A stretch of DNA of 64,000 bases from Candidatus Omnitrophota bacterium (GCA_963662715.1 OY759724.1:3293845-3357844); one strand, 5' to 3'; positions 24,954 to 42,027 are shown, counted from the first letter of the stretch. The notes: generated by a model from the letters alone, not told the origin. Numbers and translations: made by a program.

Positions 24954-26486
24954 TCACCTATATAACCCCCCGCTATATGCTCCCCTGGCATCCCTTCTCT
25001 GCTGTGCTGGAGAGTCCAATTTTTGATATCTTTGAAATTGCCTATTATAATTATCTGAAATCCTTGAATCAGAAATATTCGATCTAATATGATTGGTCCT
25101 ACTATTAATACGAGAAGAAGCTGATATCGCTTCCCTAGCCCTAATAGCATCCCTGGGGCTAATAGTATTTCTAGACCTATTATTCTTAAGTTGGTCATCA
25201 ACGCTGGAAAGATTTGATTTTACTGGATCGGAAGCTCTCCAATTTGTAGATGTCCCGTTTATTTGTGAATATTCACTATTTTTCGCATTTCTATTACTTA
25301 ATTCAATTATCTGATTTCTTGAATTAATCATATCATTTATTAAATCTTGCGTCTGCTGCCAATGACCTTTTATATCTTGGCTTAAAACGATCTCGTTAGA
25401 TTCAAATTGTCTTAATAAATTGCTTCGCTCAGTGTTCCAAGCGTTGCGAGCATTTACTAAATCACTGAAATCCTTACCATACATTTTCTTTAACTGTTCT
25501 ATTGCGTTATTTATAATCGTTTCTACTCTTTCCTCAGCTTGCTTAAAACGAACAAGACTAATCTCTAAATTTTCTAACACCATATCCTGTTCTTCCTTTA
25601 ATTCCGCATAAAGATTCATCAAGTCCCTGAATTCCCCTTCAGTAATGTCTACCAGCTGTTCGCTTAAATCCTTCAGTTCACTTTCAATTTTCTGATTGTT
25701 CTCCTGCAAGTAGCCTTCAGAAGATTCGAAAGTTTCGATTAACAAATCATACTCGTTTCCCAACAAATCTGTTATTTCCGATAATTCTTCAAGTTTTGCT
25801 TTTTCTCTTTCAATATTCTTACTAAAAATTTCCTTAAAATAACTGTCGATATCTGTGACATATCTATTCAAACATTCTTCAAATCCCCCGCAATACGCGA
25901 TATCATTCTTTTCTTGCCCAACGGCTATCTTCTCTATGGTACTTAAATTATTCTCTAATCTAACGGCGTCTGCTCTTCTTATTCTACCGGATTTCTCGGC
26001 AATCGACGCTAAAAGTTCTTCTTTGATTTCTTGATACTTTTTTGCCCGCAAGTCTTGATCGCTTATATTTTTAAATTCAACAATGTCTTTTTGAAATTTA
26101 TCTAACTCAGGGAATTCATTTAAAAAAGCCTCCCTTTCTTTTTCAATTATTTCTGCAAACGTTGCCGCCTCCTCTTGCAGGTGTCCGTTAACTTCCTTTA
26201 TTTGTTTTAAAATCTCTCCTCTCTTACGTATCAATTCTATCCGCTTCTCCTGAATCTCTTTATGAAATTTTTTTAATTCTCCCAATTTATTTTGCAATCT
26301 GACTTGGCTTTGCTTTCTAACTATTTCTACGGATGGCTCTTTCTTGGAATAGTCGGCTATTCCCGCAAAATCAATGATCTGGCCCACCAAACTTAATTCT
26401 CCCTTATTAATAAGATATTGGTTATAGGAAAAAAAACCAACCATCAGAAAAAGAACTATTAAATATACATAAGGTTGTCCCGCCAT
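24954..26486 (-). CDS. N-terminally anchored long coiled-coil protein (510 aa) with a Ser/Arg/Asn-rich disordered C-terminus; last gene of the T2SS-like array
   Basis: An N-terminal TM segment (LIVLFLMVGFFSY) is followed by heptad-like E/K/L-rich sequence. No catalytic motif was found. Confidence 0.45.
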   Translation of the reverse strand: MAGQPYVYLIVLFLMVGFFSYNQYLINKGELSLVGQIIDFAGIADYSKKEPSVEIVRKQSQVRLQNKLGELKKFHKEIQEKRIELIRKRGEILKQIKEVNGHLQEEAATFAEIIEKEREAFLNEFPELDKFQKDIVEFKNISDQDLRAKKYQEIKEELLASIAEKSGRIRRADAVRLENNLSTIEKIAVGQEKNDIAYCGGFEECLNRYVTDIDSYFKEIFSKNIEREKAKLEELSEITDLLGNEYDLLIETFESSEGYLQENNQKIESELKDLSEQLVDITEGEFRDLMNLYAELKEEQDMVLENLEISLVRFKQAEERVETIINNAIEQLKKMYGKDFSDLVNARNAWNTERSNLLRQFESNEIVLSQDIKGHWQQTQDLINDMINSRNQIIELSNRNAKNSEYSQINGTSTNWRASDPVKSNLSSVDDQLKNNRSRNTISPRDAIRAREAISASSRINSRTNHIRSNISDSRISDNYNRQFQRYQKLDSPAQQRRDARGAYSGGLYR

Positions 26487-26700
26487 ATTGCATATTCCTT
26501 TCTTTTACAATTAATAAGGAGCTTCGCAACTCTGTCGTTTAGGGCGCGTTCCAAATCTAGCGTAAAATCATCTTTTATTTTATCATATTTCGTCATTCCT
26601 TCAACCAATCCGAAGAATGGGGAAATGCCGGACGACAAGCGAATCCGAAACATCTCTTAAAGGCCGGACGCGTACGGCACGGGATCAAGTTTAAAAAGGA

Positions 26701-27612
26701 TTACTCCGGAGATAAGGAGCCTGGATGGATAAACGGCGTCGGGGTGGGAACGACACGTCCGGTCCCGTCATCGGCCTGGGGGATGGTGTTCAAGGTGCCC
26801 TTCAGACGGATCTTCATCGTGGGGCCGCCCCCGGCCGGAGCGTTTGTCACCGCCGGTTTGGGTTTAGGCGTCGACTCCACCAGATGACCTGATGTTGCCG
26901 CCGAAGGAGAATGATAAAGGAACTGCTCCTGGGAAATCCGGGCCTCTTCCGGGTTGACAATGGATCTTTCCAGCTGTCTGGCTAAATTGTTTTCCCCCAT
27001 ATGCCGTAAAAGGGTGATAACTTCCAGGACCCTGGCCCGCTCATTGTTCTGCGCATAGGCCAATCCCAGCCCAAAATACACCATCGGACTCTGAACCTTT
27101 TCCGCAACGTCATTAAAATATAAGATGGCATCGGCCGGCTGTTGCTTGCCGACCAGGTAAATCCAGGCCAAAGAAAGTTTTACGCCGGCCAGTTCCGGGT
27201 TAATCGCCAAAGCTTTCCGGCAGGCCTGTTCGGCTTCATTATGTTTTCCGGCCTGATAATAAACCCTGCACATATTATGGTAAGCGTCCGTGTTTTGGGG
27301 ATCAATATCCACAGCCACTTTAAAGAACCATATCACGTCAGAGAGCGGGTCCTGTATGGCCTGATGAGCCAAACCCAGGGCGTTATAAACCGGGGCAAAA
27401 TTAGGATCAACCTCAACCGCCTTTTCATAATGCTGTATGGCCTGGGCATAATTGCCGCTATGGTATTCTGTTTCTCCTTTTTCATAAAGTTCTCGGAAAG
27501 ACTGGGCCCCCGCTGTTGCCGGCCCCAACAGGCTGAAGCTTATAAAAACAAAAAACAGCGATAAACATTTCCTCATAATCCTGCACTCCTTGTTAGCTAG
27601 AATAAGGCTCAT
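26701..27612 (-). CDS. Secreted tetratricopeptide-repeat protein (303 aa)
   Basis: A signal peptide is followed by several TPR units (YAQAIQHYEKAVEVDPNFAPVYNALGLAH..., DAYHNMCRVYYQAGKHNEAEQACRKALAINP). Confidence 0.65.
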   Translation of the reverse strand: MSLILANKECRIMRKCLSLFFVFISFSLLGPATAGAQSFRELYEKGETEYHSGNYAQAIQHYEKAVEVDPNFAPVYNALGLAHQAIQDPLSDVIWFFKVAVDIDPQNTDAYHNMCRVYYQAGKHNEAEQACRKALAINPELAGVKLSLAWIYLVGKQQPADAILYFNDVAEKVQSPMVYFGLGLAYAQNNERARVLEVITLLRHMGENNLARQLERSIVNPEEARISQEQFLYHSPSAATSGHLVESTPKPKPAVTNAPAGGGPTMKIRLKGTLNTIPQADDGTGRVVPTPTPFIHPGSLSPE

Positions 27613-27616
27613 GACA

Positions 27617-29851
27617 TTAGGGTTTTATCATGCGCTCCCAGACATTCGTTTCTTCCTCTTCTTCCGCTTCTTCCGACGCATCATCCTGTAAAGCTTTTAA
27701 TCCTTTTCTGACCGGTCTGGAACTCTTTTCCTTGGATGATTTCTTCTTGCTGGAAGTCTTTTTAGACTTCGTCTGAGATTCCTCGCTTGCTTTGTCTTCC
27801 GATCCCCAGAACTGCCTCCACAAGGTGTACAAGTCATCCAAACGGAAACCTTTGGCTTTACGGCTGTTTAACAATTTATCAAAATCCTTTGTATGTTCCT
27901 TAATCGGCTGGATATACGCCGGGGGTGTCGGTTGCGGCGTGGGTGTCCCCCGGGGAGATTCTTTTCCCTCCTGAGTTTCTTCACCGCCTCCCGTGCCTCT
28001 TCCGCGGGCGTCTTCGTCGTTACCCCCGCCCTCTCCGCCGGAACCGCTCCCGCTTTCCTGCGCGCCTTCCCCCTCGCCTTCGCCAGCGCCCTGCCCTTCT
28101 CCCCGGGCTCCCTCGCCTTCGCCTCCGCCTTGAGACTCGTCACTCTGATCCCCCACGCCTTGAGATTCGCCGTCACCTCCCTGAACGTCTCCACTCCCCT
28201 CGCCTTCGCCTTCCCCGCCGCCTTGCCCTTCACCTTCTCCGGACCCGCTTCCCGCTCCGCTGCCTTCCCCGGCCCCTGTCCCTTCACCGCCGCTGTCTCC
28301 TTCTCCTTCGCCGGATGTATCACCCTGCCCTCCGGCATCCCCTCCGCCGTCCATGGAAATATCACTTCCCCCGTCGCCGGCCCCTCCCCCGGAACCGTCA
28401 GCCCCTCCGCCGTCTCCCTGCCCGCCGCCTGATCCATCCTGCCCGCCGGAACCTTCACCCGAACTTCCGGCACCGCTTCCCGCTCCGGCCCCCTGCCCGC
28501 TCCCGGCGCCGTCGCCGGAACTGGACCCGCCTCCTCCGTCACCCTGCCCGGCACCCGTACCGCCCTGCCCTCCGGAAGACCCCTGCCCCTGCCCTGCCCC
28601 GGAACCGCCCGCCGATGAACCAGCACCGCCTCCGCCGGGCCCCTGACCGCCCTGCCCGGCGCCGCCATCACCGGTACCGGCGCCCTGGCCGCTGCCGGTG
28701 CCGCTGCCGAGACCTGATCCGGCCCCTTCTCCGCCGTCACCGGAGCCGCTTTGCTGCGAATCACCTCCGCCGGTCGTCCCTTTCCCCTCTCCGCCGGCTC
28801 CCTGCCCGCCGCCATCGCCCTGCCCCTGGGCATTTCCGCTCTGCCCTCCGGCGCCCTGGCCGTCGTTCTGTCCCTGCCCCTGGGAGTCTGCCGAGCCGCT
28901 GCCTCCCCCTTGCGCCGAACCGTCTTCTGAACCTCCGTCCTCCGATTCATTTCCTTCGGTCTTCTGGGCCTGTCCTTCGGCACCCTCCCCTTCCGGGGAC
29001 GCGCCGCCCTCCTGCGCCTGTCCCTGCGTTTCTGTCTCCTGCCCTTTTTGACCGGCAACATCATCATCCGCCGAGGAAGCTCCGTCCTTTGTTTCCTGTC
29101 CGGGAATATCTCCTCCGTCTTTTCCCTCCTGCCCGTCCGAACCTTCGCCTTTCCCGTCTCCGTCAGAATCAGACCCGCCCTCTCCCGAGCCCGCCCCCTT
29201 GCCTTTGGCCTCTCCGTCTCCCGGCGCCCCGTCTTCCGCGGTCCTGTCCGCCCCGGCCGAAAAATCAATATCATCTTCCGAAAATTCCACACTGCCGATC
29301 GTCTTGGGATCAATAATCAATTTCGCGACCTTAAAAGCGGCGGTGACTCCGTCGGCCGAAGCTTTCTGTCCGGAAATGCTCATTTTGACAATCTTTAACA
29401 AATTCGTCGTCGTGTCGATCTTGTACATAAAACTGACCATATCCTCCAGCCGGCCGGAACATTCCATGTTGGCATAATATTCAACATACCCTTTTTTCTG
29501 GGTCATATCCGAAGAGATCAGTTTGATAAGATTGATATTCGCTTCTGACGCTAAATTTTCAATCGTCTGCAAAAAGGCAGCAATGATCTCTTCTTCCGAC
29601 TCCGGCGTTTTCTCCAGATAAATGCTGTATTCCTGCTCTTCCTGCAGGATCTTACTTTCATACGAGAGAAACCGGGAACTGTTTTTAATCCCGATCATCT
29701 TTTCTTTTGTTTCTGTATCGATAGCGTGTTTCTTGCTCGTATACGGGCGGAAAACAAGCCCGTCAAACAAAGCCAGGACAGCCACTCCGACGGCAATATA
29801 AAAGATTTTTCTTTCCTGCTCAGACAATTTGCTGTAAAAATTCTGAAACAA
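27617..29851 (-). CDS. GspM-like T2SS inner-membrane component (N-terminal ~190 aa) with a ~500-aa Gly/Ser/Glu/Asp-rich low-complexity insert and a Lys-rich C-terminus, 744 aa
   Basis: A short cytoplasmic N-terminus, a single TM segment (IFYIAVGVAVLALFDGLVF) and a periplasmic domain of GspM/PilO size lie immediately downstream of the GspL-like gene. These are followed by GxGxGEGEG... low complexity. Confidence 0.4.
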   Translation of the reverse strand: MFQNFYSKLSEQERKIFYIAVGVAVLALFDGLVFRPYTSKKHAIDTETKEKMIGIKNSSRFLSYESKILQEEQEYSIYLEKTPESEEEIIAAFLQTIENLASEANINLIKLISSDMTQKKGYVEYYANMECSGRLEDMVSFMYKIDTTTNLLKIVKMSISGQKASADGVTAAFKVAKLIIDPKTIGSVEFSEDDIDFSAGADRTAEDGAPGDGEAKGKGAGSGEGGSDSDGDGKGEGSDGQEGKDGGDIPGQETKDGASSADDDVAGQKGQETETQGQAQEGGASPEGEGAEGQAQKTEGNESEDGGSEDGSAQGGGSGSADSQGQGQNDGQGAGGQSGNAQGQGDGGGQGAGGEGKGTTGGGDSQQSGSGDGGEGAGSGLGSGTGSGQGAGTGDGGAGQGGQGPGGGGAGSSAGGSGAGQGQGSSGGQGGTGAGQGDGGGGSSSGDGAGSGQGAGAGSGAGSSGEGSGGQDGSGGGQGDGGGADGSGGGAGDGGSDISMDGGGDAGGQGDTSGEGEGDSGGEGTGAGEGSGAGSGSGEGEGQGGGEGEGEGSGDVQGGDGESQGVGDQSDESQGGGEGEGARGEGQGAGEGEGEGAQESGSGSGGEGGGNDEDARGRGTGGGEETQEGKESPRGTPTPQPTPPAYIQPIKEHTKDFDKLLNSRKAKGFRLDDLYTLWRQFWGSEDKASEESQTKSKKTSSKKKSSKEKSSRPVRKGLKALQDDASEEAEEEEETNVWERMIKP
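27784..29269 (-). repeat. GC-rich low-complexity coding tract (imperfect GGx/GAx/GSx codon repeats) inside the GspM-like gene
   Basis: The translation is dominated by G, S, E, D and A with no regular unit. The opposite strand gives Pro/Arg-rich pseudo-ORFs. Confidence 0.6.
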
Positions 29852-29869
29852 AACGACACTCCTTAATGA

Positions 29870-31393
29870 CTATTCTTCTTTACCTTCTTCCTCTCCGGCG
29901 CCTTCCCCGTCTTCTAACACATCCTCCGCCGCCGGGATCTCTTCTTCATCATCAGCCCATTCCAGCTTAAAGGCAATCTCAAAAGCCGCCACATCCTTCC
30001 CCCGTTCCTTTTTGGCCGATGTCGATCTTGTCTTAACATTCTTGAACAACTCCGATTCTTCAAGCGCCGTAACGAAATTGAAAACCCGGGACATCGTTTC
30101 GGAAACACCGGTGATCTCAACGCTGCCGTTTTCTGTCATGCTGATGGACTGGAGATAAATTTCATCCGGGATAAGTTTATACAGGGTCGTCACAACTTCC
30201 AATCCGACCATACGGCTTTGCAAGTACCCCTTCATGATACGGGTCTTTTGCGCTTTACGGTCAAGCGCCAGGACTTTCTTCCGTTTTTCCTGATAGTCTG
30301 TCCGCAGGCGTTCAAGGTAGAGGTTATTGAAATGTTCCTTGCTGACGAAGATAAAAGCAAAAATAATAAAAATGAGAAAAGCTAATATTCCCGTCTTAAT
30401 GACCTGCCGGCCTTTTTCTTCGATGACCCGCTGGGTTTTAATTTCCTCCGGCGTCAGGTCAACCTTCATTTGCTCAAGGCTCCATCCGCAGCCGATTATA
30501 GTGAAGAAGGAATCGTCGTTGTACTCCGAAACAAGCTTCATCATCTCCGGCTGCCCCGCCTGGATGATATCCAGATAAGGCATCATCTTAATGTTGGCTT
30601 TCAGTTTTTCCTGCAGAAGCGGCTGCATCTCTTTCAGCGTGGCGTCATCGCTCGTTATAATAAACGTTTCCGGAAGGCGGTTAATATCCTCGTTCTGATA
30701 AGCTTCAACGGATTGACTTAACTCCATCAACAATTTGTCCCGCGCCTCGGCCCCTTCCTTAAGGAGGTGCGACAGACCGATAGGGATATGCCGGTACATA
30801 GCTACGGTTTTATTGGATTCGATCAGGAAAGACGTGTACGGGTTGGCCACATCAATGATCCCCAGGGGGATATCATCCTCTTTGAGGTTCATGGCTTTGG
30901 CATAAAAATGAGCCATGCCTTCCGGGGCGAAAAGGACCTTATCCACCTTAATACCCGCTTCATCAAGCACTTCCAGTTGTTTCTTCACGACGTTCCGGTT
31001 GACAAGAATCAACAGGACCTTGGTGTAATTACGCTGGAAAACGCCGATCTTAATATAGCCGACGAGGATCTCCTCTCGGGAGAAAGGCGTGTGCCGTCCG
31101 GCCTGCAGCTCGATAATGGACTGTATTTCCTCGGCATCCAAAGAAGGGATTTCGATGTTTTTTGTGATCACCTGGCTGGGAGGAAGAGTACAGATGGCCG
31201 GCGTCTTTTTGATATGGATATCCGCCAGGCAAGAATGGATTGTTTTGGCCAGCTCTTCTTCGGGGAGATCCCGCAGGTCCCCTTTGGTCACGTGAAGAAG
31301 TCTTTTATCAGACTCCTTGCCCCTGATCTGAGCGACCTTGATGGAGACATCATCCAGACTGACGATAACGGTTTCTTTATCTTTGCTAAACAT
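29870..31393 (-). CDS. GspL-like protein (PilM-like cytoplasmic actin-fold domain, TM segment, PilN-like periplasmic domain), 507 aa
   Basis: The call rests on domain order, on the position between gspK and the gspM-like gene, and on an acidic C-terminal tail. Confidence 0.5.
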   Translation of the reverse strand: MFSKDKETVIVSLDDVSIKVAQIRGKESDKRLLHVTKGDLRDLPEEELAKTIHSCLADIHIKKTPAICTLPPSQVITKNIEIPSLDAEEIQSIIELQAGRHTPFSREEILVGYIKIGVFQRNYTKVLLILVNRNVVKKQLEVLDEAGIKVDKVLFAPEGMAHFYAKAMNLKEDDIPLGIIDVANPYTSFLIESNKTVAMYRHIPIGLSHLLKEGAEARDKLLMELSQSVEAYQNEDINRLPETFIITSDDATLKEMQPLLQEKLKANIKMMPYLDIIQAGQPEMMKLVSEYNDDSFFTIIGCGWSLEQMKVDLTPEEIKTQRVIEEKGRQVIKTGILAFLIFIIFAFIFVSKEHFNNLYLERLRTDYQEKRKKVLALDRKAQKTRIMKGYLQSRMVGLEVVTTLYKLIPDEIYLQSISMTENGSVEITGVSETMSRVFNFVTALEESELFKNVKTRSTSAKKERGKDVAAFEIAFKLEWADDEEEIPAAEDVLEDGEGAGEEEGKEE

Positions 31394-31418
31394 AGATCAT
31401 GAGCCTAATGTTAAAAAA

Positions 31419-32462
31419 TCATAATTCTTTCCAATAGACAATTTTTTGCTCCGGCGCGAAAAAAACGCAGGAAATGAGTTTTTTGCCCTTGGACGACGCT
31501 ATAGTGGCGTAACTGTGAATACGGTAATAGTACGATTGTGTTCCCAGCCAGCCCTGGGCATTGAGTTCCTCGATAAGCTGAATATCCTCCTTTTCTATGG
31601 ACTTCTGAGCCGCCATAAAAGACACGAGTTGGGGGAGATCAGGGAAGACCATATCATCGGCCGTCCAGTCCATCCCGTCGACCCCTCTTCTTATAGCCAG
31701 AAAACGGCTCACAAAAACATCAGGGAATCCCAGCGACAGCAGGACAGGACGGGATGCGGTATTTATGTTCACCTTCCCGCTGCCGAAGACCGTCAGGTAA
31801 GGAAGGAGTTGCCCCGCCACTTCGGGAGTCCAGCCCCGAAGAAGAGCTAATTCGTGCGTGGTCTCAAAATTCGCCTTTTTCTCCGGGAAAGGGAACTCCA
31901 GGTTATCATAATACTCGTCACTGTAGAACCCGACGATTTCACTGTCGCCGTACTTGCGCCAGTCAATAACGGCCTGAGCCAGATCGTTAGCATCCTCCTC
32001 ATCCATAGACAAAACAGTCTGGATCAGCTTTGTCAGGACATCTTCATCGGCCTTGTTGATATTGATTCTTCTTTCCTCATCGGTAAAGCCGTATAAGACC
32101 CGTGCCCGGCCGGCCGCGGACTCTTCCTCTGAGCGGTATTTCAACTCAAAAGAGCCCGGCCCCCGGGAAGCATCCTTGAAGACAGCCGGGTTATTCATCC
32201 ACTGAATTCTCCGGACAGCAGGAGGCGTCCGGGTCCCCGCTTTATTCTTATGGGCTTCATAAAAAATATACATCGCCTTGGCGACTCCTGATTTAGCCAG
32301 CCAATAAAGGTCCTGGCGCTGTTCCAGCCGTGAAACGAGCGTCATCTTTTGACGGATCTGCGCCCCGAGGCTGACGGTCAGAAAGCCCAGCAGGCCCAAC
32401 GCCCATATGGCCAGAATAAGAATCGTCCCTTCTTTTTTCTGCAGCTTACGCATGTTCATCAA
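31419..32462 (-). CDS. gspK: GspK-like minor pseudopilin (347 aa)
   Basis: An N-terminal hydrophobic segment (GTILILAIWALGLLGFL) and a helix-hairpin-helix-like GSGKVNINTASRPVL motif are characteristic of GspK. Confidence 0.6.
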   Translation of the reverse strand: MMNMRKLQKKEGTILILAIWALGLLGFLTVSLGAQIRQKMTLVSRLEQRQDLYWLAKSGVAKAMYIFYEAHKNKAGTRTPPAVRRIQWMNNPAVFKDASRGPGSFELKYRSEEESAAGRARVLYGFTDEERRININKADEDVLTKLIQTVLSMDEEDANDLAQAVIDWRKYGDSEIVGFYSDEYYDNLEFPFPEKKANFETTHELALLRGWTPEVAGQLLPYLTVFGSGKVNINTASRPVLLSLGFPDVFVSRFLAIRRGVDGMDWTADDMVFPDLPQLVSFMAAQKSIEKEDIQLIEELNAQGWLGTQSYYYRIHSYATIASSKGKKLISCVFFAPEQKIVYWKEL

Positions 32463-33100
32463 CCCGCAATAGGCAGATCCAGTAAACGTGTTAATGTTCT
32501 TGTATCCCCGTTCCGTTCCCGGACCTGTATTTCAACAAGCACGGCAACCGGCAAAACATGATCGAGCTCTTTCTTCCAGATATAATCCTGTCCGTCAGGG
32601 ACAAGATAGGACAATTTCAGCGCCTGAACCGGGGAGACCACAACGCGCTGGGTCCCGAATTCCGATTTTAAGGCCTGGCTGTAATTCGCCTGTTTGCGGA
32701 TAACCGCATGACTCGCCTTGTCATATAAGTATTCAACTTTTCCGATCTGGTCAACATAGCGGACAGAGTGCTCGGATATCTTCTTGTCCTGCGGGACACG
32801 CACCAAGGTCGGGATGGAAAGCCGGGTTTCTTCCCCTTCAAAATTAAACTGAGAAAAAGCAAAAGCATTACGCAGGTCAACGCCTATTTTATCCAGGAAA
32901 ACAATGGCATCCTCCTCAAGGGTAAAATGCCGGCTCAACTCCCACAATTTAAGGCTGTTGACAACAGACCGGTTAACGGCCAGCCCGATCATGGCCAGGA
33001 TTGAAATGACAAGAGTCATTTCAATGACGGTAAAGGACCTGAGCGAACGCCTGTTTTCCGATATTTTATCGCGGTGAATTCTCATGACACCATCCGTCAA
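32459..33100 (-). CDS. Minor pseudopilin (GspJ-like) with a prepilin-type N-terminal domain, 213 aa
   Basis: It contains ...LRSFTVIEMTLVISILAMIGLA with the conserved Glu at +5. The residue at -1 is Ser rather than Gly, which is non-canonical. Confidence 0.5.
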   Translation of the reverse strand: MTDGVMRIHRDKISENRRSLRSFTVIEMTLVISILAMIGLAVNRSVVNSLKLWELSRHFTLEEDAIVFLDKIGVDLRNAFAFSQFNFEGEETRLSIPTLVRVPQDKKISEHSVRYVDQIGKVEYLYDKASHAVIRKQANYSQALKSEFGTQRVVVSPVQALKLSYLVPDGQDYIWKKELDHVLPVAVLVEIQVRERNGDTRTLTRLLDLPIAG

Positions 33101-33549
33101 AAATAAGACAAGTACGCTGACCGGCTGAGCCTGGCCGTCCGGCTGCGTTCCGGCCAGGAAAGGGTCATCTCCATCTCATAAAAATCTTTTTCCGTGTTGA
33201 GCGGTTTCATGCTCACCGAAAGCCGGAACGGAATCAGTCGCTTGTTTAATCTGACCGCATGCACGGACCCGTTTAAGTCCTTGGGGAGAGCGGCCCCGCT
33301 CTTAAAAAGGTATTGTATACGGGTAGCCTGATGATCAAGATAATTCTTGGCAAACAACCGGTTCGTTAAATGCTGCTGATAATCAAAAGACAGCAGCATC
33401 GCCTTGTGGATCATCACGAGGCCGAGGGAGAAAACGACAACGGTGACCATAACTTCGAAGAAGGTAAACCCCCGCCTCTTCAGACAACGCAGCTCCCCGG
33501 CGCTATCTTCATTCCCAGTTAACGATATCATCCTCGTCCGTATTTTCAT
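33097..33549 (-). CDS. Minor pseudopilin (GspI/H-like) with a prepilin-type N-terminus
   Basis: It contains ...KRRGFTFFEVMVTVVVFSLGLVMI. I moved the start from the track ORF start (33645) to an internal Met to avoid a 137-nt overlap with gspG. Confidence 0.45.
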   Translation of the reverse strand: MKIRTRMISLTGNEDSAGELRCLKRRGFTFFEVMVTVVVFSLGLVMIHKAMLLSFDYQQHLTNRLFAKNYLDHQATRIQYLFKSGAALPKDLNGSVHAVRLNKRLIPFRLSVSMKPLNTEKDFYEMEMTLSWPERSRTARLSRSAYLSYF

Positions 33550-33952
33550 CCTTCCCCTTTGAATAAAGGTCATAATCCATGCGATGATCCCCGGGAGAGC
33601 GATACTCGTATACCTGCCCCCAGGGATCAACGGGCCTTTTTTCAATATAAGGACCGTTCCAGTTCGTCGGGACCGGACTGCTCGTCGGCTGCTTCAGCAG
33701 GGCTTCCAGGCCCTGGCTGGTCGTCGGGAAATGGCCATTATCCAGCTCGTACAATTTCAAAGCTGTCGCTAAATTGGTCTCTATATCCGCCTTGGCCACG
33801 GCCTTTTTCGCTTGCTCTGAACGCCCGGTTAACCGGGGGACAACCATGGCGGCCAGCGCCCCGATGATAACCACCACCATAATGATTTCCACCAGGGTAA
33901 AACCTGCCTCTCGGGATCTATAAGAATTTTTCCTGCAAGGCATTCCTTTCAT
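33509..33952 (-). CDS. gspG: Major pseudopilin GspG
   Basis: The leader MKGMPCRKNSYRSREAG precedes FTLVEIIMVVVIIGALAAMVVPRL; the downstream sequence ...ADIETNLATALKLYELDNGHFPTTSQGLEALL...NWNGPYIEKRPVDPWGQVYEYRSPGDH..DYDLYSKGKDENTDEDD is a strong GspG signature that includes the Ca-binding loop. I moved the start to the internal Met at 33952. Confidence 0.85.
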   Translation of the reverse strand: MKGMPCRKNSYRSREAGFTLVEIIMVVVIIGALAAMVVPRLTGRSEQAKKAVAKADIETNLATALKLYELDNGHFPTTSQGLEALLKQPTSSPVPTNWNGPYIEKRPVDPWGQVYEYRSPGDHRMDYDLYSKGKDENTDEDDIVNWE

Positions 33953-33996
33953 TTTCGTATCACCTCTCTCCCGTTGATTCATCATAATCTCTAAAA

Positions 33997-34857
33997 TTAC
34001 CGCCCATCCATCATGGACGACTGTTTCATAAACGAGATCCATTTTCTTTCAAGGTCATTCAAATCCTTGATCGTGCTGGGATACACGCGTTGAAGGGCGG
34101 ACTCAAAATCCCGCCCGTCGCGTATCTGACGGCAAAGCCGGCCAAAGGCATCACTGCCGTGCTTTTTAATCAGGAACTCTACGATGGAAAGACTTTGAGC
34201 GTAAAAAACCGCAACCTTAAGAGGATCCGTTTCCTGCTGTATATCCCAGATCATCAGATGTTCCAAAGGGATATATTGATCCTGGGCAAGAAAAGACCGC
34301 ATGATTTTAAATGCTGATTCACTTTTGCCGGCCTCATAGAGCTGCGCGATCCCTTCGTCAAACCACATCGGGATACGCTCCGTGTCCGGGATGAAATCAT
34401 GCAGTATTAAATGACCGATCTCATGAGGCAAAAGCCCGTCAAAGAATTCCTGGTCCTGCCGATACGTCACGATGACCCTCCCCAGCAGAGTATAGGAGTC
34501 TTTGTTGACATACCCGGTGGACCATTCAGGCTGTCCGGTCTGCTCGGAGAAAGTCTTCCGGTCCGGGAACAGATAAATGTTGACCCGCTGCTCCCAGGTC
34601 CAGAAATTACCGTAACGGGTAAACCCGATCTTAGCTCCGATGTTCTGATAGTAACGTTCCGCCTCCCGGAGGATCCGCTGGGCTGTTTTTTTATCTTTCG
34701 TTTCCTGGAAATGCACAACAAAATGCTTGTCTTTTAACTGCTGCCAGTCTTCTTCCTGAAAAACATTTTGGAGGCGAGGTTCTCCATAAACTGTCCCCGG
34801 AGAAAGGACCAGCACCTGCCAAAGAACAAAGATATGAATCATTTTTCTGCGCACCAT
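33997..34857 (-). CDS. Secreted zinc metalloprotease (HExxH, peptidase MA clan), 286 aa
   Basis: A signal peptide and an LLPHEIGHLILH zinc-binding motif are present. The gene is embedded between gspF and gspG. Confidence 0.5.
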   Translation of the reverse strand: MVRRKMIHIFVLWQVLVLSPGTVYGEPRLQNVFQEEDWQQLKDKHFVVHFQETKDKKTAQRILREAERYYQNIGAKIGFTRYGNFWTWEQRVNIYLFPDRKTFSEQTGQPEWSTGYVNKDSYTLLGRVIVTYRQDQEFFDGLLPHEIGHLILHDFIPDTERIPMWFDEGIAQLYEAGKSESAFKIMRSFLAQDQYIPLEHLMIWDIQQETDPLKVAVFYAQSLSIVEFLIKKHGSDAFGRLCRQIRDGRDFESALQRVYPSTIKDLNDLERKWISFMKQSSMMDGR

Positions 34858-34874
34858 AATCGTCCTTGGAAATT

Positions 34875-36086
34875 CTATCCGGCAAAAACATCCAGCTGAA
34901 AAATGGGTAATAACATCGCGATAACAATAAACCCGATAACAGCCCCGATAATAACAATCATAAGCGGTTCCAGCATTGTCGTCATGATCTTAATCTTTTC
35001 ATTCGTCTCCTGCTCATAATTTTCTGCGATATCCAGCAAAGTTTCCCCTAACAGCCCTGATTCCTCTCCCACACTAATAAGATGACTGACCATTTCAGGG
35101 ATCATCGGGGATTCCCCCAGAATTTCCCCAAAAGACCGCCCGGCCACCAACTCTTCCTGACACGTTTTAAGGTGATCCTGAAGGATAGAATTGCCGGTCA
35201 CCGGGATGGACAGTTGAAAAGCCCTGACGACAGGGACTCCGCTCTGAATAAGTAAACGCAAGGCCCTGGCAAAACGGGCTATCTCAAGTTTCAGCAGAAA
35301 GTCCCCCCAAAAGGGAGTTGCCAGACTCAATTGATTAAGGAATAACCGTCCCGCGGAGGTTCTCGCCCACTGCTTCAACAGGGCCGTCAGAACAATGACC
35401 GCCACCCCGCAGAAAAATCCGTACTGCAGCAAGAAATCACTCATATTCATAACCATCAGGGTCGGCGCCGGGAGGGTTTGGTTAAAATTCTCATATAACG
35501 CCGTTATTTTCGGCATCACGTACGTTAAGGTGAAAATGATGGACGCGATACCAAAAACAAGCATAAAAAGAGGGTACGCAAGCGCAGACCGCACTTTTGA
35601 TAGGATCTCTTCCTGCTGTTTCTGATATTCCGTGATACTCAGCAAAGACTCCTTCAAACGGCCGCTTTCTTCCCCGGCCTTCACGAGAGTGACATATAAC
35701 GGAGAAAATATTTTGGGATAATCCGCAAAGGATTCTGAAAGCGATTTACCTCCCCGCACCTTCGCCTGAATGGAATCGATGATAAAACGGGAATACGAAT
35801 TCTTTGTCTGCTGGCTTAAGACTTCCAAGGCTCTTAAAATCGGGACCCCGGCCTTGATTAAACTGACGAGCTGCTTGCTGAAAAGGTACCGCTCCTTTGA
35901 GCTGATCCGCCCGAAACGGTACGCCTTGCGGTCCGGCGCCGTTACCGGGGAGATTTCTTCAACGGAGACAGGAACGTAGCCCAGCTGATGGACCTTTTCA
36001 ATAGCGTCTTCCCGGCTTTCCGCTGTCAGACGTCCGACGATTGTCTCAGCGTTTTGTTGTTTGGCTTTATAATGATATTGTGGCAT
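34875..36086 (-). CDS. gspF: T2SS/T4P inner-membrane platform protein GspF (403 aa)
   Basis: Two GspF repeats are present, with ...LVKAGEESGRLKESL... and ...LISVGEESGLLGETL... motifs, and three TM segments. Confidence 0.85.
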   Translation of the reverse strand: MPQYHYKAKQQNAETIVGRLTAESREDAIEKVHQLGYVPVSVEEISPVTAPDRKAYRFGRISSKERYLFSKQLVSLIKAGVPILRALEVLSQQTKNSYSRFIIDSIQAKVRGGKSLSESFADYPKIFSPLYVTLVKAGEESGRLKESLLSITEYQKQQEEILSKVRSALAYPLFMLVFGIASIIFTLTYVMPKITALYENFNQTLPAPTLMVMNMSDFLLQYGFFCGVAVIVLTALLKQWARTSAGRLFLNQLSLATPFWGDFLLKLEIARFARALRLLIQSGVPVVRAFQLSIPVTGNSILQDHLKTCQEELVAGRSFGEILGESPMIPEMVSHLISVGEESGLLGETLLDIAENYEQETNEKIKIMTTMLEPLMIVIIGAVIGFIVIAMLLPIFQLDVFAG

Positions 36087-36120
36087 AAGCTTCCCTGATC
36101 ATGATGTCCGGTGAAATTGT

Positions 36121-38337
36121 TTAACTTTCCTGGTTTTGCTGCTTCCCTTTTTTCCGTTGTTCCCGGACAAAATGATTAATATGAACACGGTCGGCGCTCG
36201 AAATATCCAGATAATAAACGACAATGTTAAACATCGCTGAAAGGTTGTCGTCTTCAACACGGCAAACCCGGGCCAGACAATTGACCCGTTTTTCCGCTCC
36301 CGGCAATTGGATGCGAAGGTCAACGATAGCCCCGACCGGGAGCGTGTAGCCGGAGACGAAACGCAGTCCTCCGGCACTGATGTCGCGCGTCACAGAAGCG
36401 TGCTCGACCTGGTCATAAAACAATTTCAACGGGTTTTTCGGATCCTGCCGTACGATCGAGTACCGTATGCTGACCTTCTCCTCGGCCCGGTCATAAGCGC
36501 GTGAATTGTAGTCATCCTTGACCGAAAGGATTTCCTTGTTGATGACCCGGACATTTTCCGGGTTTTTGTTTAACCCTGTGACGATCAGGCCCTGCGACAA
36601 AGCCGGAGCTTCTTCACCTTGACTGAGATCATCTTTCACCGTAACGTTAATGACTTCGCCGGGGGTCGTAATCCCGGCCAGGACTTTTTGCCACCCATTC
36701 TGTCTCAATGTCGTCATACCCCGTTTAACGGCCAGCCGTTTAATCTGATCTGCACGCTGTTTCTCCAGGATGGCGCCACGGATATCTTCATCAATAACCA
36801 GAATCTCATAAAGAGCCGTGCGGCCGTAATACCCTGTCTGATGACAGAAATCGCATCCCCGTCCCTGAAAAATTTTTATGTGACGCGGGTCCGTGATCCC
36901 CAGGGAAGCAGCCATCTCCTGCCTAATCTCCTGGGGCTGACTCAAATCTTCTTTTTTGCATTGAGGACAGATCGTCCGCACAAGCCGCTGCGCTATAAAA
37001 GCCTCTATGCTGGAAGACACCAGAAACGGCTCCATCCCCATTTCTATAAGCCGGGTGATTCCGCTGGAGGCATCATTGGTATGCAGGGTCGAAAAAACCA
37101 AATGTCCTGTTAAAGCCGTACGGATCGCGATTTCCGCTGTTTCAAGATCCCTGATCTCCCCGACCATGATAATGTCCGGATCATGCCGCAAAACACTTCT
37201 CAATCCCGTGGCAAAATCGAACTCCACCCGGGGATTGATTTGAATTTGCGTAATCCCCTCCATCTCATATTCCAGGGGATCCTCCAGTGTCACGATCTTT
37301 CTGTCGGGGGAATTGATCTCATGAAGACAGGCATAAAGCGTCGTTGTTTTTCCGCTGCCGGTCGGGCCGGTCACTAAAATGATCCCGTGCGGCCGTTTGA
37401 CCAGATCACGGAAGACATCCAGGTTTTTCTGATCCAGCCCCAATTTCTCAAGGCTTAACAACATAACATTCGTGGGAAGAATACGGATCACCATACTTTC
37501 GCCATGAGAAGTCGGGATCGTGGAAATACGAAGATCCAGGGTCTGTTCTTTGGTTCTAACGACCGCGCTGCCGTCCTGAGGAAGCCGTTTTTCAACAATA
37601 CTGAGGTTGGCGATGATTTTAATTCTGGATATGATGGACGGCAGAAAACCTTTAACCGCCTGAGGAATATTGGCGTCGAGCAAACGTCCGTCTATGCGGT
37701 AACGCACCCGGACAATATTCCGGTAAGGCTCAATATGAATATCGGTCGCCCTTTTCTTATGGGCTTCCAGGAGAATCTGGTTAACTAATCTTGTTATCGT
37801 AACTTCATCGGCACCTTCGTCCAGATCCTCAACCGCTGTTTCCGCCTGTCTTGAAGGGGCCGATTCCCTGGACAACCGCTCAAGAGTATCAGCCGCCAGG
37901 CCGTAATATTTATTCAGAGCGTTCATAACATCAGCTTCCCTGGCAAGAACGATTTTCGGCTCCAAGGACAAATGCACCCGGATTTCATCCTGGGATTTGA
38001 CATTCAGAGGATTGGCACAAGCCAAAAGAACGCTTTTGTCCGTTATCTTAACGGGCATAAACTTGTAATACCAGGCGAACCGGACAGGAACCCGGGTCAG
38101 GACCGTTTGATCGACAGGATAACTCTGCAGGGAAATAATTTCAAGCTGATACAAATCCGAAAGAATCTGCAAAAGCTGATCTTCGGGAAGGATTTTCTTC
38201 TCCACGAGAATATCCTTAAGAGAAACAGGGGAATTCTCAACAGCGCGCAGCTGTTCTTCAACAAGCGCCCCTGTTAACAGGCCTCTTTTAACAAGTTCTT
38301 TAGCGAGTATTTTATCGGATTGCTTCATCGGGAACAC
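36121..38337 (-). CDS. gspE: T2SS ATPase GspE with a C-terminal PilZ domain (738 aa)
   Basis: It has an N-terminal T2SSE_N domain, Walker A (VTGPTGSGKTTTLYA), an Asp box/Walker B (IMVGEIRDLETAEIA) and a His box (LVFSTLHTNDA). The additional ~115-aa C-terminus carries the PilZ signatures RYSIVR (RxxxR) and DISAGGLRF (DxSxGG). Confidence 0.9.
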   Translation of the reverse strand: MFPMKQSDKILAKELVKRGLLTGALVEEQLRAVENSPVSLKDILVEKKILPEDQLLQILSDLYQLEIISLQSYPVDQTVLTRVPVRFAWYYKFMPVKITDKSVLLACANPLNVKSQDEIRVHLSLEPKIVLAREADVMNALNKYYGLAADTLERLSRESAPSRQAETAVEDLDEGADEVTITRLVNQILLEAHKKRATDIHIEPYRNIVRVRYRIDGRLLDANIPQAVKGFLPSIISRIKIIANLSIVEKRLPQDGSAVVRTKEQTLDLRISTIPTSHGESMVIRILPTNVMLLSLEKLGLDQKNLDVFRDLVKRPHGIILVTGPTGSGKTTTLYACLHEINSPDRKIVTLEDPLEYEMEGITQIQINPRVEFDFATGLRSVLRHDPDIIMVGEIRDLETAEIAIRTALTGHLVFSTLHTNDASSGITRLIEMGMEPFLVSSSIEAFIAQRLVRTICPQCKKEDLSQPQEIRQEMAASLGITDPRHIKIFQGRGCDFCHQTGYYGRTALYEILVIDEDIRGAILEKQRADQIKRLAVKRGMTTLRQNGWQKVLAGITTPGEVINVTVKDDLSQGEEAPALSQGLIVTGLNKNPENVRVINKEILSVKDDYNSRAYDRAEEKVSIRYSIVRQDPKNPLKLFYDQVEHASVTRDISAGGLRFVSGYTLPVGAIVDLRIQLPGAEKRVNCLARVCRVEDDNLSAMFNIVVYYLDISSADRVHINHFVREQRKKGKQQNQES

Positions 38338-38370: not shown

Positions 38371-40771
<2,401 letters not shown>

Positions 40772-40783
40772 AGCCTTTCATCC

Positions 40784-41559: not shown

Positions 41560-41787
41560 TTATTCAGAAACTAATGCTTTAAAAAATGTTAATATCAGCG
41601 CAAAGGAAACGGTTTCAACAATAACTAGCTTCAGTAAAATACTCATTTGTATAGCCGGTGTCTTGCTGGGGGCCCGGCCTAACCGGTTAATAAGCTGCAC
41701 CCCCACCCAAGCGGCGCCGATACAGGGGATAATAATCAAAATCCAGAAAATGATAATAAAAACCAGGGCAACATTCGCCATAAACAC
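41560..41787 (-). CDS. ATP synthase c-subunit paralog (75 aa, divergent)
   Basis: It is a two-TM hairpin with a loop LGRAPSK and a conserved carboxylate in helix 2 (VIVETVSFALIL). Confidence 0.55.
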   Translation of the reverse strand: MFMANVALVFIIIFWILIIIPCIGAAWVGVQLINRLGRAPSKTPAIQMSILLKLVIVETVSFALILTFFKALVSE

Positions 41788-41805: not shown

Positions 41806-42027
41806 TTACTTTCCAAAAAGCTGAAAAATAACTAATATCGCGATAACGGAAATGGCTTCGACAAAAATAAGCATGACGACCATTCCCATAAAAATTTTCG
41901 ATGCCGCTGAAGGATTCCGGCTCAAAGCCTTAATAACAGCATACCCTAAAACAGCGATAACAATGGAAGGGCCCAAGACAGCGATCAACATAATGGAGAC
42001 AATTAATAAGGTTTCTGCCCACTGCAC
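41806..42027 (-). CDS. atpE: ATP synthase c-subunit (73 aa)
   Basis: The sequence ...ALSRNPSAASKIFMGMVVMLIFVEAISVIAILVIFQ has the RNP loop and the ion-binding Glu. Confidence 0.75.
   Translation of the reverse strand: MQWAETLLIVSIMLIAVLGPSIVIAVLGYAVIKALSRNPSAASKIFMGMVVMLIFVEAISVIAILVIFQLFGK

What the first reader, a model, noticed from the sequence alone, without database searches (positions are those of the whole stretch)
24954..38337. T2SS-like operon (E-F-protease-G-I/H-J-K-L-M plus TPR and coiled-coil genes) with no secretin or GspC in the window, directly fused to the ATP synthase operon
Gene order follows the canonical gsp synteny from E to M with 4-nt overlaps. However, there is no gspD secretin, gspC or prepilin peptidase in this window, and the operon starts only 33 bp after atpD. 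This could be a Sec-dependent secretion or pseudopilus apparatus that uses an unlinked or non-secretin outer-membrane channel. Alternatively it could be a novel GspG-based filament system.
Basis: partly seen in the sequence, partly recalled or inferred. Interest (0 to 1): 0.7.

Follow-up and report, generated by a model that had tools for sequence, protein, structure and literature searches.

The report
Omnitrophota ATPase-linked secretin-less pseudopilus module
This is one copy of a gene block shared by many Omnitrophota bacteria, joining a type II secretion-like pseudopilus machine (no outer-membrane pore gene of its own) to an unusual F-type ATPase and a giant repeat protein; the ATPase–pilus linkage was published in 2023, but how the machine works is unknown.

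Summary
On the minus strand, 38337..26701 encodes GspE, GspF, an MA-type metalloprotease, GspG, GspI-like and GspJ-like pseudopilins, GspK, a PilM-PilN fusion (GspL-like), a PilO/GspM-like protein and a TPR protein. It starts 33 nt after an F1 beta gene. The 64-kb window has no secretin, GspC/PilP, prepilin peptidase or PilT.

The organism is a Candidatus Omnitrophota. The locus matches the 'symbiotic F-type ATPase/T4aP locus' of Seymour et al. 2023, so the linkage is already known.

About 60 related loci keep the same block: a giant 13-residue 'GINW'-repeat protein, a 460-aa membrane protein, alpha-epsilon-c-c'-b/delta-gamma-beta with no a subunit, then the pseudopilus genes, often with a convergent STT3 gene. 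None carries a secretin. The 510-aa coiled-coil gene is window-specific.

PilQ-type secretins are common in other Omnitrophota pilus loci, and prepilin peptidase is unlinked there too. An unlinked pore and peptidase is therefore the most likely arrangement, but I could not show it for this genome.

GspE carries a C-terminal PilZ domain with fully conserved c-di-GMP-binding motifs.

Verdict: a new member of a known kind, with moderate interest.

The parts
45511..64000 (-). Giant repeat protein, more than 6160 aa visible. The reading frame stays open to the window edge. It has about 447 tandem 13-residue 'G-[IV]-N-W-x-D/N-I-x-x-M/L-S-D-A' repeats and a ~330-aa helical C-terminal domain. It is the first gene of the conserved block.
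   Evidence: The same protein lies upstream of the 460-aa gene in relatives. The reciprocal search starting from its C-terminal domain recovers the ATPase and GspE/F genes in 30 of 30 loci as far as each contig reaches.
44096..45478 (-). 460-aa protein with an N-terminal hydrophobic helix, two copies of [beta-sandwich + helical bundle], a long helix and a C-terminal TM helix. The family is restricted to this module. Function unknown.
42448..43992 (-). F1 alpha subunit
   Evidence: Pfam ATP-synt_ab. TIGR00962 atpA scores 518.9, above its cut-off of 484.45. Best PDB matches are canonical F1 alpha, E 1e-132.
42098..42430 (-). Epsilon-like subunit (110 aa, divergent)
   Evidence: TIGR01216 scores 40 bits, below its cut-off of 67. 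ATP-synt_DE_N is annotated in the orthologues.
41806..42027 (-). c-like subunit (73 aa, two TM helices; Glu in helix 2)
   Evidence: ATP-synt_C is annotated in the orthologues.
41560..41787 (-). Second c-like hairpin protein (75 aa, two TM helices, Glu in helix 2). No family hit.
   Evidence: Conserved position.
40784..41542 (-). b/delta fusion (stator stalk with one N-terminal TM helix)
   Evidence: Pfam OSCP plus ATP-synt_B. TM helix.
39920..40771 (-). Gamma subunit (divergent)
   Evidence: Pfam ATP-synt. TIGR01146 scores 75 bits, below its cut-off of 194.
38371..39891 (-). F1 beta subunit with a ~45-aa acidic N-terminal extension
   Evidence: TIGR01039 atpD scores 534.4, above its cut-off of 462.85. 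Best PDB matches are canonical F1 beta, E 1e-139; the Mycoplasma G1-ATPase beta scores only 1e-99.
36121..38337 (-). Assembly ATPase GspE/PilB with an N-terminal MshEN-type domain and a C-terminal PilZ domain
   Evidence: In 120 orthologues the Walker A residues and the CxxC...CxxC cysteines are conserved, and the PilZ RxxxR and DxSxxG motifs are 92-100% conserved.
34875..36086 (-). Platform protein GspF/PilC (3 TM helices)
33997..34857 (-). Exported MA-clan metallopeptidase (HEIGH). Accessory member, missing in some subclades.
   Evidence: phmmer detects it in most ATPase-linked loci, but not in L013, L022-24, L026 and L030-32.
33509..33952 (-). Major pseudopilin GspG (prepilin motif G|FTLVE)
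   Evidence: TIGR01710 above cut-off. The globular domain matches solved GspG structures at E 3e-27.
33097..33531 (-). Minor pseudopilin, GspI-like (G|FTFFE)
   Evidence: N_methyl plus a weak TIGR01707 match. The motif is conserved in 27 orthologues. The orthologue profile has no PDB hit.
32459..33100 (-). Minor pseudopilin, GspJ-like (S|FTVIE; Ala, Ser or Gly at -1 in nearly all orthologues)
   Evidence: The orthologue profile hits Vibrio EpsJ at E 0.002. Motif conserved.
31419..32462 (-). Minor pseudopilin GspK (no Glu5, as is usual for GspK)
   Evidence: T2SSK_1st and NF037980.
29870..31393 (-). PilM-PilN fusion: cytoplasmic actin-like domain, one TM helix, periplasmic PilN domain. This is the GspL architecture.
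27617..29851 (-). PilO/GspM-like protein (~200-aa core with one TM helix) plus a lineage-specific ~550-aa Gly/Ser/Asp/Glu-rich disordered tail
   Evidence: Weak PilO and GspM hits. The tail ranges from 0 to ~550 aa among orthologues.
26701..27612 (-). Exported TPR protein, the last conserved gene of the unit
   Evidence: Conserved position. A terminator-like site lies at 26720..26703.
22380..24938 (+). STT3-family oligosaccharyltransferase-like membrane protein. It is convergent with the unit and is a frequent neighbour of the block in relatives.
   Evidence: Pfam STT3. Detected convergent to the TPR gene in about half of the related loci that extend that far.

Best explanation
The region is the type IV-filament half of a conserved Omnitrophota module of about 20 genes. 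How it most likely works is set out below; steps 1, 2 and 5 rest on sequence and synteny evidence, steps 3, 4 and 6 are inferred.

1. GspF, the PilM-PilN fusion (GspL-like) and the PilO/GspM-like protein form an inner-membrane platform.
2. GspE powers assembly of a short GspG pseudopilus capped by GspI-like, GspJ-like and GspK proteins. GspE is probably switched by c-di-GMP through its C-terminal PilZ domain.
3. The four prepilins need a prepilin peptidase encoded elsewhere in the genome.
4. To reach the cell surface, the machine most likely borrows an unlinked PilQ-type secretin, such as Omnitrophota encode in separate pilus loci.
5. The genes lie on one strand with short gaps (103 nt or less) directly after a specialised F-type ATPase (alpha, epsilon, two c-like proteins, b/delta, gamma, beta; no a subunit), a 460-aa membrane protein and a giant repeat protein. 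They are probably one transcription unit.
6. Together they probably build or expose a surface structure used for attachment to other cells, as Seymour et al. proposed. The ATPase partner's role is unknown.
For: - Component identities.
- Prepilin motifs with Glu5 are conserved in the G, I-like and J-like proteins and absent in K.
- PilZ RxxxR/DxSxxG motifs are 92-100% conserved in 120 orthologues.
- The same gene order occurs in 32 loci reached through GspE/GspF (GspE 79-54% identical among the top 120 hits; GspF down to 37-39%) and in 30 loci reached independently through the giant protein.
- The GspF proteins of these loci form a single clade in a quick NJ tree. Its sister is a secretin-GspE-GspF locus.
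- Intergenic gaps are 103 nt or less from the 460-aa gene to the TPR gene, and there is no convincing terminator inside the unit.
- Secretins exist in the phylum in other loci: L043 has PilMN-PilO-PilQ-TPR-PilC-pilins-PilB and L054 has secretin-GspE-GspF-GspG. There are 2068 PilQ-type hits, and the named ones among the top 120 are labelled Omnitrophota/Omnitrophica.
- The secretin-bearing locus L043 also lacks a prepilin peptidase, so components acting in trans are normal here.
- Published ATPase/T4aP co-location in all Omnitrophota classes: PMC10066038.
Against: - No secretin or prepilin peptidase was shown in this genome or in any genome carrying the module. None of the long contigs carrying the module (3.36 Mb, 917 kb, 659 kb, 397 kb, 292 kb) appears among the top 120 secretin hits, though that list is far from complete.
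- No GspC/PilP-type connector to a secretin is present. The 460-aa protein shows no such fold.
- Absence of a secretin from about 60 loci could also mean the machine never crosses the outer membrane.
- Co-transcription, c-di-GMP binding and any physical link to the ATPase are inferred, not tested.
Confidence: 0.55

Rival explanations
1. Secretin-independent machine. The pseudopilus stays in the periplasm or uses a non-secretin route. Together with the a-less F-type ATPase and the 460-aa protein it forms a composite envelope motor that moves, extrudes or tensions the giant repeat protein.
For: - No secretin, GspC or PilP in the window or in about 60 related loci.
- In an outgroup locus (L025) the secretin gene lies directly upstream of gspE, the position occupied here by the ATPase genes.
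- Giant protein, 460-aa protein, ATPase and pseudopilus genes are linked in every locus, whichever end the search started from.
- The secretin-bearing pilus locus L043 has its own assembly ATPase, platform protein and pilins.
Against: - No candidate alternative pore was found. The TPR and 460-aa proteins are predicted to be soluble or single-pass, not beta-barrels.
- Unlinked secretins and peptidases are common in type IV filament systems (established knowledge).
- There is no evidence of physical coupling between an F-type ATPase and a type IV filament platform in any organism.
Confidence: 0.2
2. A true type IVa pilus, as annotated by Seymour et al.: a long external, possibly retractile fibre used for attachment or twitching, sharing PilQ, PilD and PilT encoded elsewhere.
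For: - The ATPase is as similar to PilB/PilF as to GspE and has the full PilB-like N-terminal region.
- The platform proteins match PilM, PilN and PilO models.
- The published annotation is T4aP.
Against: - The major subunit passes the GspG equivalog cut-off, and its globular domain matches only GspG structures.
- The minor subunits are GspK, GspJ-like and GspI-like.
- The window has no PilT/PilU, PilP or PilQ.
- GspF scores higher against the GspF model than against the PilC models.
Confidence: 0.2
3. The ATPase genes are simply the cell's housekeeping ATP synthase and the adjacency to the pseudopilus operon has no functional meaning.
For: - Alpha and beta pass the atpA/atpD equivalog cut-offs and resemble canonical F1 more than the Mycoplasma F1-like ATPases.
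- Both c-like proteins keep the helix-2 glutamate.
Against: - No a subunit in the cluster in any locus.
- Non-canonical gene order, a b/delta fusion and two c paralogues.
- Gamma, epsilon, c and delta all score below their family cut-offs.
- The adjacency is kept in about 60 loci, across GspF divergence down to ~37-39% identity in the GTDB set.
- Seymour et al. report a separate 'respiratory' alpha clade in the phylum.
Confidence: 0.05

Closest known systems
[quoted passage not shown] 2023, Nat Microbiol, PMC10066038)
   Same: Same phylum and the same defining feature: F-type ATPase genes directly next to type IV filament genes. The paper reports 57 of 66 contigs co-located within 10 kb and presence in every class, including V. 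archaeovorus LiM. This window is another instance.
   Different: In the text I could read, the paper calls the filament genes T4aP and the ATPase 'type 2/3' Mycoplasma-like. Term searches of its main text returned no mention of secretin, a-subunit or c-subunit, and I saw no description there of a PilZ fusion, the 460-aa protein or the GINW-repeat giant. Here the pilins are GspG/I/J/K-type, and alpha/beta score as ordinary atpA/atpD, not as the Mycoplasma families.
Canonical type II secretion system (GspC-O, Proteobacteria)
   Same: GspE, GspF, GspG, GspK and GspI/J-like minor pseudopilins in the E-F-G-...-K-L-M order. A GspL-like one-protein PilM-PilN architecture and a GspM/PilO-like protein.
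   Different: No GspD, GspC, GspO or GspH in the locus. The L and M equivalents match Pil models rather than Gsp models. GspE has a PilB-like N-terminus and a PilZ domain. A metalloprotease gene is inserted between F and G. The unit is fused to ATPase genes.
Type IVa pilus machinery (PilA, PilBCD, PilMNOPQ, PilT)
   Same: PilB-like ATPase, PilC-like platform protein and PilM/N/O domains. Multi-locus organisation with unlinked PilD is usual for T4aP (established knowledge).
   Different: The major subunit is GspG-type, not PilA-type. No PilP, PilQ or PilT here. A separate Omnitrophota locus type (L043) looks like the real T4aP-like system with PilQ.
Mycoplasma type 2/type 3 F1-like ATPases (gliding motor MMOB1660/1670; MSC_0618/0619)
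   Same: An F1-type alpha/beta pair in a non-canonical cluster thought not to make ATP. Seymour et al. place the Omnitrophota alpha near them.
   Different: All four family models score far below their cut-offs: 398 against 600, 412 against 850, 304 against 520 and 392 against 570. The solved G1-ATPase beta is a poorer match than canonical F1. This cluster also keeps epsilon, two c-like proteins and b/delta. From my own knowledge, not tested here, the Mycoplasma clusters lack those.
Secretin-less type IV filament machines of monoderms (Com pseudopilus, Gram-positive T4P)
   Same: ATPase, platform protein and pseudopilins working without a secretin (established knowledge).
   Different: Those organisms have no outer membrane. 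Omnitrophota encode STN-Secretin proteins, so they presumably do have one.

Membership tests
Canonical T2SS (Gsp) | Secretin GspD belonging to the system | tested here: not met
   The secretin HMM finds nothing in the 64-kb window or in about 60 related loci. Presence elsewhere in the source genome could not be tested.
Canonical T2SS (Gsp) | GspC (HR domain, with or without PDZ) linking the platform to the secretin | tested here: not met
   No T2SSC, PDZ or PilP hit in any scanned ORF. The 460-aa protein model shows no HR-like match.
Canonical T2SS (Gsp) | GspE ATPase and GspF platform protein | tested here: inconclusive
   Strong family hits, but below the equivalog cut-offs: GspE 571.7 against 630 and GspF 340 against 424. 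GspE scores almost equally as PilB, 551.7.
Canonical T2SS (Gsp) | GspG major pseudopilin | tested here: met
   TIGR01710 scores 152.4 bits against a cut-off of 88.85. Matches solved GspG structures at E 3e-27.
Canonical T2SS (Gsp) | Minor pseudopilins H, I, J, K | tested here: inconclusive
   K: clear domain hit, below the equivalog cut-off. J-like: profile hit to EpsJ at E 0.002. I-like: only a weak N-terminal hit and no PDB match. No fourth minor pilin (H) gene.
Canonical T2SS (Gsp) | Prepilin peptidase GspO/PilD | tested here: not met
   No Peptidase_A24 hit in the window. Not testable for the rest of the genome.
Type IVa pilus | PilA-type major pilin, PilQ secretin, PilP, PilT retraction ATPase | tested here: not met
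   The major subunit is GspG-type. No PilQ, PilP or PilT in the window.
Type IVa pilus | PilB, PilC, PilM, PilN, PilO | tested here: met
   Pfam PilM_2, PilN and (weakly) PilO. Best PDB matches are PilB, E 2e-125. M and N are fused.
Omnitrophota F-type ATPase/T4aP locus (Seymour 2023) | F-type ATPase genes within 10 kb of type IV filament genes in an Omnitrophota genome | tested here: met
   33-nt gap between beta and GspE. Omnitrophota assignment from homologues. Same arrangement in relatives.
Mycoplasma type 2/3 F1-like ATPase | Alpha/beta belong to the MMOB1660/1670 or MSC_0619/0618 families | tested here: not met
   All four models score far below their cut-offs, while atpA and atpD are passed. 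A phylogenetic placement was not redone.
F0F1 ATP synthase (housekeeping) | Full subunit set including the a subunit (proton channel) | tested here: not met
   The cluster is alpha, epsilon, c, c', b/delta, gamma, beta. No ATP-synt_A in the window or in L001-L004. An a subunit elsewhere in the genome was not testable.
PilZ c-di-GMP receptor | RxxxR and (D/N)xSxxG motifs | tested here: met
   R613 and R617 are 100% conserved; D652 92%, S654 99% and G657 100% in 120 orthologues. Binding itself was not tested.
MshEN c-di-GMP receptor | Two RLGxxL(L/V/I)xxG(L/V/I)(L/V/I)xxxxLxxxLxxQ motifs | tested here: not met
   The Pfam MshEN fold hit is present, but the key Arg/Gly/Gln positions are not conserved. 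The NF053729 motif model scores 16.7 bits against a cut-off of 38.

The most novel reading that the evidence does not exclude
The a-less F-type ATPase, the 460-aa membrane protein and the secretin-less T2SS-like platform are one composite envelope machine. ATP-driven rotation and pseudopilus assembly together export, extend or move the giant GINW-repeat fibre. That would make it a new class of type IV filament-based apparatus that does not use a secretin.
Probability: 0.12. Interest if true: 0.85.

Novelty: new member of a known kind. Interest (0 to 1): 0.45.

Why it matters
Omnitrophota are uncultured, mostly ultra-small bacteria thought to live on or prey on other cells. This module is one of the few conserved candidates for how they attach to or act on hosts.

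The analysis sharpens the published picture in four ways:
- The filament part is T2SS-like rather than a classical pilus, and it never carries its own pore, connector or peptidase.
- In one subclade, which includes this window, it is wired to c-di-GMP through a PilZ fusion.
- The partner ATPase keeps rotor and stator parts but has no proton channel.
- A giant repeat protein and a module-specific membrane protein always travel with it.

This gives concrete, testable targets. Do the genomes hold a secretin? What does the ATPase turn? Is the giant protein the cargo?

It is not a new kind of system by itself, because the ATPase–pilus linkage has been in the literature since 2023.

Tried and rejected
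1. Locating the source contig to search the whole genome. The exact GspF and GspE proteins are not in the contig index, and the genome is not among the GTDB representatives (best GspF match 70%).
2. 'Contig-length fingerprint' test for a secretin in the same genome. I searched with Omnitrophota secretins and looked for hits on the 3,360,633-bp contig or other long module-bearing contigs. None appeared in the 120 rows shown. This is uninformative because 2068 hits exist.
3. Supplementary tables of Seymour et al. for per-genome PilQ/PilD calls. The relevant sheets were truncated in the stored copy.
4. Searches for Velamenicoccus or other Omnitrophota secretin literature found nothing specific.
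5. The secretion locus next to giant genes described by West-Roberts et al. is a different, Tad-like system with gspD/rcpC, next to a different kind of giant protein. I rejected it as the same thing.
7. The TPR protein as an orthologue of the TPR gene next to PilQ in L043. Only generic TPR similarity.
8. The N-terminus of the giant protein, to see a signal peptide or prepilin motif. Every ORF in 30 metagenome loci and all GTDB loci runs to the contig or locus edge.
9. The fold of the giant's repeats. The single-sequence model has mean pLDDT 60 and shows regular short beta-strands. Foldseek found nothing significant.
10. Literature on GspE-PilZ fusions. None was found in the two papers I checked.
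11. Promoter and terminator scans are at chance level and only weakly support one long transcription unit.

Full report
**What is in the sequence**

All genes from 63945 down to 26701 lie on the minus strand.
- A 738-aa ATPase with T2SSE (E 6e-133), an N-terminal MshEN-type domain and a C-terminal PilZ domain.
- GspF.
- An exported Peptidase_MA_2 protein (HEIGH motif).
- GspG.
- Two small proteins with prepilin motifs.
- GspK.
- A single protein carrying PilM and PilN domains.
- A protein with weak PilO/GspM similarity and a very long Gly/Ser/Asp/Glu-rich tail.
- A TPR protein.
- A 510-aa coiled-coil protein.

GspG passes its NCBIfam equivalog cut-off (152 against 88.85 bits), and its globular domain matches only solved GspG structures. 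A profile of orthologues of the 213-aa protein hits Vibrio EpsJ (GspJ) at E 0.002. The 144-aa protein has only a weak GspI hit. The prepilin cleavage motif with Glu5 is conserved in the G, I-like and J-like proteins and absent from K, as in type II systems.

The 33-nt gap to the preceding F1 beta gene and the two 4-nt overlaps are correct. The window has no secretin: a secretin HMM finds nothing among its six-frame ORFs. It has no GspC/PilP, no prepilin peptidase and no second PilT-like ATPase.

**Where it comes from and what was already known**

The 738-aa ATPase is identical to a public protein on a 3,360,633-bp contig. Its 120 best relatives (79-54% identity) all have the same MshEN-T2SSE-PilZ architecture, and every one that carries a source name is labelled Candidatus Omnitrophota or Omnitrophica.

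Seymour et al. 2023 (PMC10066038) described 'symbiotic' F-type ATPase genes next to type-4a pilus clusters in every class of this phylum: 57 of 66 contigs co-located within 10 kb, including V. archaeovorus LiM. Term searches of that paper's main text returned no mention of secretin, a-subunit or c-subunit.

**The conserved unit is bigger than the flagged span**

Four relatives with precomputed Pfam annotation, 28 loci from one genome per species in GTDB and 30 metagenome loci show one fixed order:
1. A giant repeat protein.
2. A 460-aa protein.
3. F1 alpha, epsilon, c, a second c-like hairpin, a b/delta fusion, gamma and beta.
4. GspE, GspF, the metalloprotease (absent in some loci), GspG, the I-like and J-like pilins, GspK, PilM-N, the PilO-like protein and the TPR protein.
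5. A convergent STT3-family gene in about half of the loci that extend that far.

The metagenome loci were found starting from the C-terminal domain of the giant protein, not from the pilus genes. All 30 have the 460-aa gene next, and then the ATPase and GspE/GspF genes as far as each contig reaches. The linkage therefore holds in both directions.

In a quick neighbour-joining tree the GspF proteins of these loci form one clade. Its sister is an Elusimicrobia-labelled locus with secretin-GspE-GspF. In that outgroup the secretin gene lies directly upstream of gspE, the position occupied here by the ATPase genes.

The coiled-coil gene 26486..24954 is in none of the relatives. It follows a 214-nt gap with a terminator-like and a promoter-like site, so I exclude it from the unit.

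Variation within the family:
- The PilZ fusion is confined to the window's subclade. Other subclades have ~590-aa or ~560-aa GspE without it.
- The metalloprotease was not detected in several loci.
- The disordered tail of the PilO-like protein ranges from 0 to ~550 aa.

**The ATPase partner**

Alpha and beta are ordinary F1 subunits by sequence. They pass the atpA and atpD equivalog cut-offs, and their best solved relatives are canonical F1 at E 1e-132 and 1e-139. They score far below the cut-offs of the Mycoplasma gliding (MMOB1660/1670) and MSC_0618/0619 families. The solved Mycoplasma G1-ATPase beta is a poorer match, at 1e-99. I could not redo the published phylogeny, but membership of the Mycoplasma families is not supported by these models.

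Several features are unusual:
- The gene order.
- The b/delta fusion.
- Two c-like hairpins, both keeping the helix-2 glutamate.
- Divergent gamma, epsilon, c and delta.
- No a subunit in the cluster, in the window or in L001-L004.

'Fused to the ATP synthase operon' should therefore read 'fused to a specialised F-type ATPase cluster without its proton channel'. Whether an a subunit elsewhere serves it is unknown.

**The secretin question**

No secretin lies within 10 kb of the query match (GspE, GspF or the giant's C-terminal domain) in any of the ~60 loci. Omnitrophota do have secretins, though:
- L043, on a complete 1.5-Mb chromosome, has PilMN-PilO-PilQ(STN, Secretin_N, Secretin, TPR)-TPR-PilC-pilins-PilB.
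- L054 has secretin-GspE-GspF-GspG.
- A profile of these two secretins finds 2068 proteins at E<=1e-10. The top 120 share the PilQ-type domain set, and the named ones are labelled Omnitrophota/Omnitrophica.

The L043 locus also lacks a prepilin peptidase and PilT, so unlinked shared components are normal in this phylum. The four prepilins of the window's operon cannot mature without an unlinked peptidase in any case.

This makes an unlinked secretin the most economical reading. I could not show that any genome carrying the module also carries a secretin. The contig-length check was negative but has little power.

**Mechanism**

Shown by sequence and synteny:
- An inner-membrane type IV filament platform with a GspG-type major subunit and an I/J/K-type tip.
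- A PilZ domain with intact c-di-GMP-binding motifs: R613 and R617 at 100%, D652 at 92%, S654 at 99% and G657 at 100% in 120 orthologues. The MshEN motif is degenerate.
- Tight same-strand packing with the ATPase genes.

Inferred:
- One transcription unit.
- c-di-GMP gating.
- A short pseudopilus rather than a long retractile pilus. The locus has no PilT and the subunits are T2SS-type.
- Use of an unlinked PilD and PilQ.
- A role in presenting a surface structure for cell-cell contact.

The rivals are a secretin-independent composite machine with the ATPase (0.2), a true type IVa pilus (0.2) and a meaningless adjacency to the housekeeping ATP synthase (0.05).

**The other conserved members**

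The giant protein has about 447 near-perfect 13-residue repeats with invariant G-x-N-W, followed by a conserved helical C-terminal domain. Its frame is still open at the window edge, and its N-terminus was not seen in any locus. A single-sequence model suggests regular short beta-strands at modest confidence and has no structural match.

**Verdict**

This is a new member of a known kind, the published Omnitrophota ATPase-linked type IV filament locus. The details added here are:
- T2SS-type pilins.
- Consistent lack of secretin, connector and peptidase.
- The PilZ fusion.
- An ATPase without an a subunit.
- Obligatory linkage to a giant repeat protein and a module-specific membrane protein.

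Interest is moderate: the machine is unexplained and phylum-wide, but its existence is not news.

Noticed in passing
window 45511-64000 (-); also L001-L004, L085-L114: Giant protein (more than 6160 aa here, frame open at the window edge) made of ~447 tandem 13-residue repeats with invariant G-x-N-W, almost no Lys/Arg/Pro/His/Tyr/Phe, and a conserved ~330-aa helical C-terminal domain ending ...KTWFE. It always sits directly upstream of the 460-aa/ATPase/pseudopilus block. Pfam reports only a spurious 'Lysostaphin_N' repeat match. It causes the extreme GC skew (-0.5) at 48-64 kb. It differs from the TM-rich 'archaeovorin' giants described by West-Roberts et al.
   Followed up: partly
window 22380-24938 (+): STT3-family oligosaccharyltransferase-like membrane protein, convergent with the operon and kept in that position in about half of the relatives that extend that far. 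The giant protein has 163 N-x-S/T sequons (shuffled mean 130 +/- 10), none with the bacterial D/E-x-N-x-S/T form. A link to glycosylation of module proteins is only a guess.
   Followed up: partly
window 41560-42430 (-) and the whole ATPase cluster 38371-43992: The F-type ATPase cluster has two different c-like hairpin genes, both keeping the helix-2 glutamate, but no a subunit. Alpha aligns from residue ~4 to position ~22-31 of canonical alpha, so the usual N-terminal segment is missing. Beta has a ~45-aa acidic N-terminal extension.
   Followed up: partly
window 27617-29851 (-), esp. ~27900-29300: The PilO-like protein carries a ~550-aa Gly/Ser/Asp/Glu-rich low-complexity tail (local GC 0.61), which generates long spurious ORFs in other frames and on the opposite strand. 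Tail length varies from 0 to ~550 aa among orthologues. Where a tail is present, several orthologues end with a short (N/S)-(L/I/V)-W-E-(K/R) motif.
   Followed up: partly
window 24954-26486 (-): 510-aa coiled-coil protein with an N-terminal hydrophobic segment and a Ser/Arg/Asn-rich tail. No family hit, and absent from all related loci. It looks like a lineage-specific insertion between the TPR and STT3 genes.
   Followed up: partly
window 1641-9956 (-): 2771-aa teneurin-like/RHS protein (TTR-like, FN-plug, NHL and YD-shell domains with RHS repeats), probably a polymorphic toxin. A 153-aa ORF with no family hit lies just downstream (1167-1628).
   Followed up: no
window 15102-18911: A CitMHS-family transporter gene appears split. 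The N-terminal part is at 18911..18144 and the C-terminal part at 15575..15102 (both minus strand), with a DDE transposase gene (16449..18044, plus strand) between them. This is probably an IS insertion. The terminal repeats were not checked.
   Followed up: no
L026, L029, L031, L032 and several 'Planctomycetales'-labelled loci: Module-bearing contigs from MAGs labelled Kiritimatiellia, Victivallis, 'bacterium' or Planctomycetales. Either the module also occurs in other PVC-group lineages, or these MAG labels or bins are wrong. L026/L031/L032 form a divergent subclade with a ~560-aa GspE and, as far as phmmer detects, one c-like gene.
   Followed up: no
L043 (CP070797.1) 3911-14055; L054: Omnitrophota have at least two other type IV filament locus types that do carry a secretin: TPR-PilMN-PilO-PilQ-TPR-PilC-pilins-PilB, and secretin-GspE-GspF-GspG. 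In L043 the PilQ protein itself ends in a TPR motif.
   Followed up: partly
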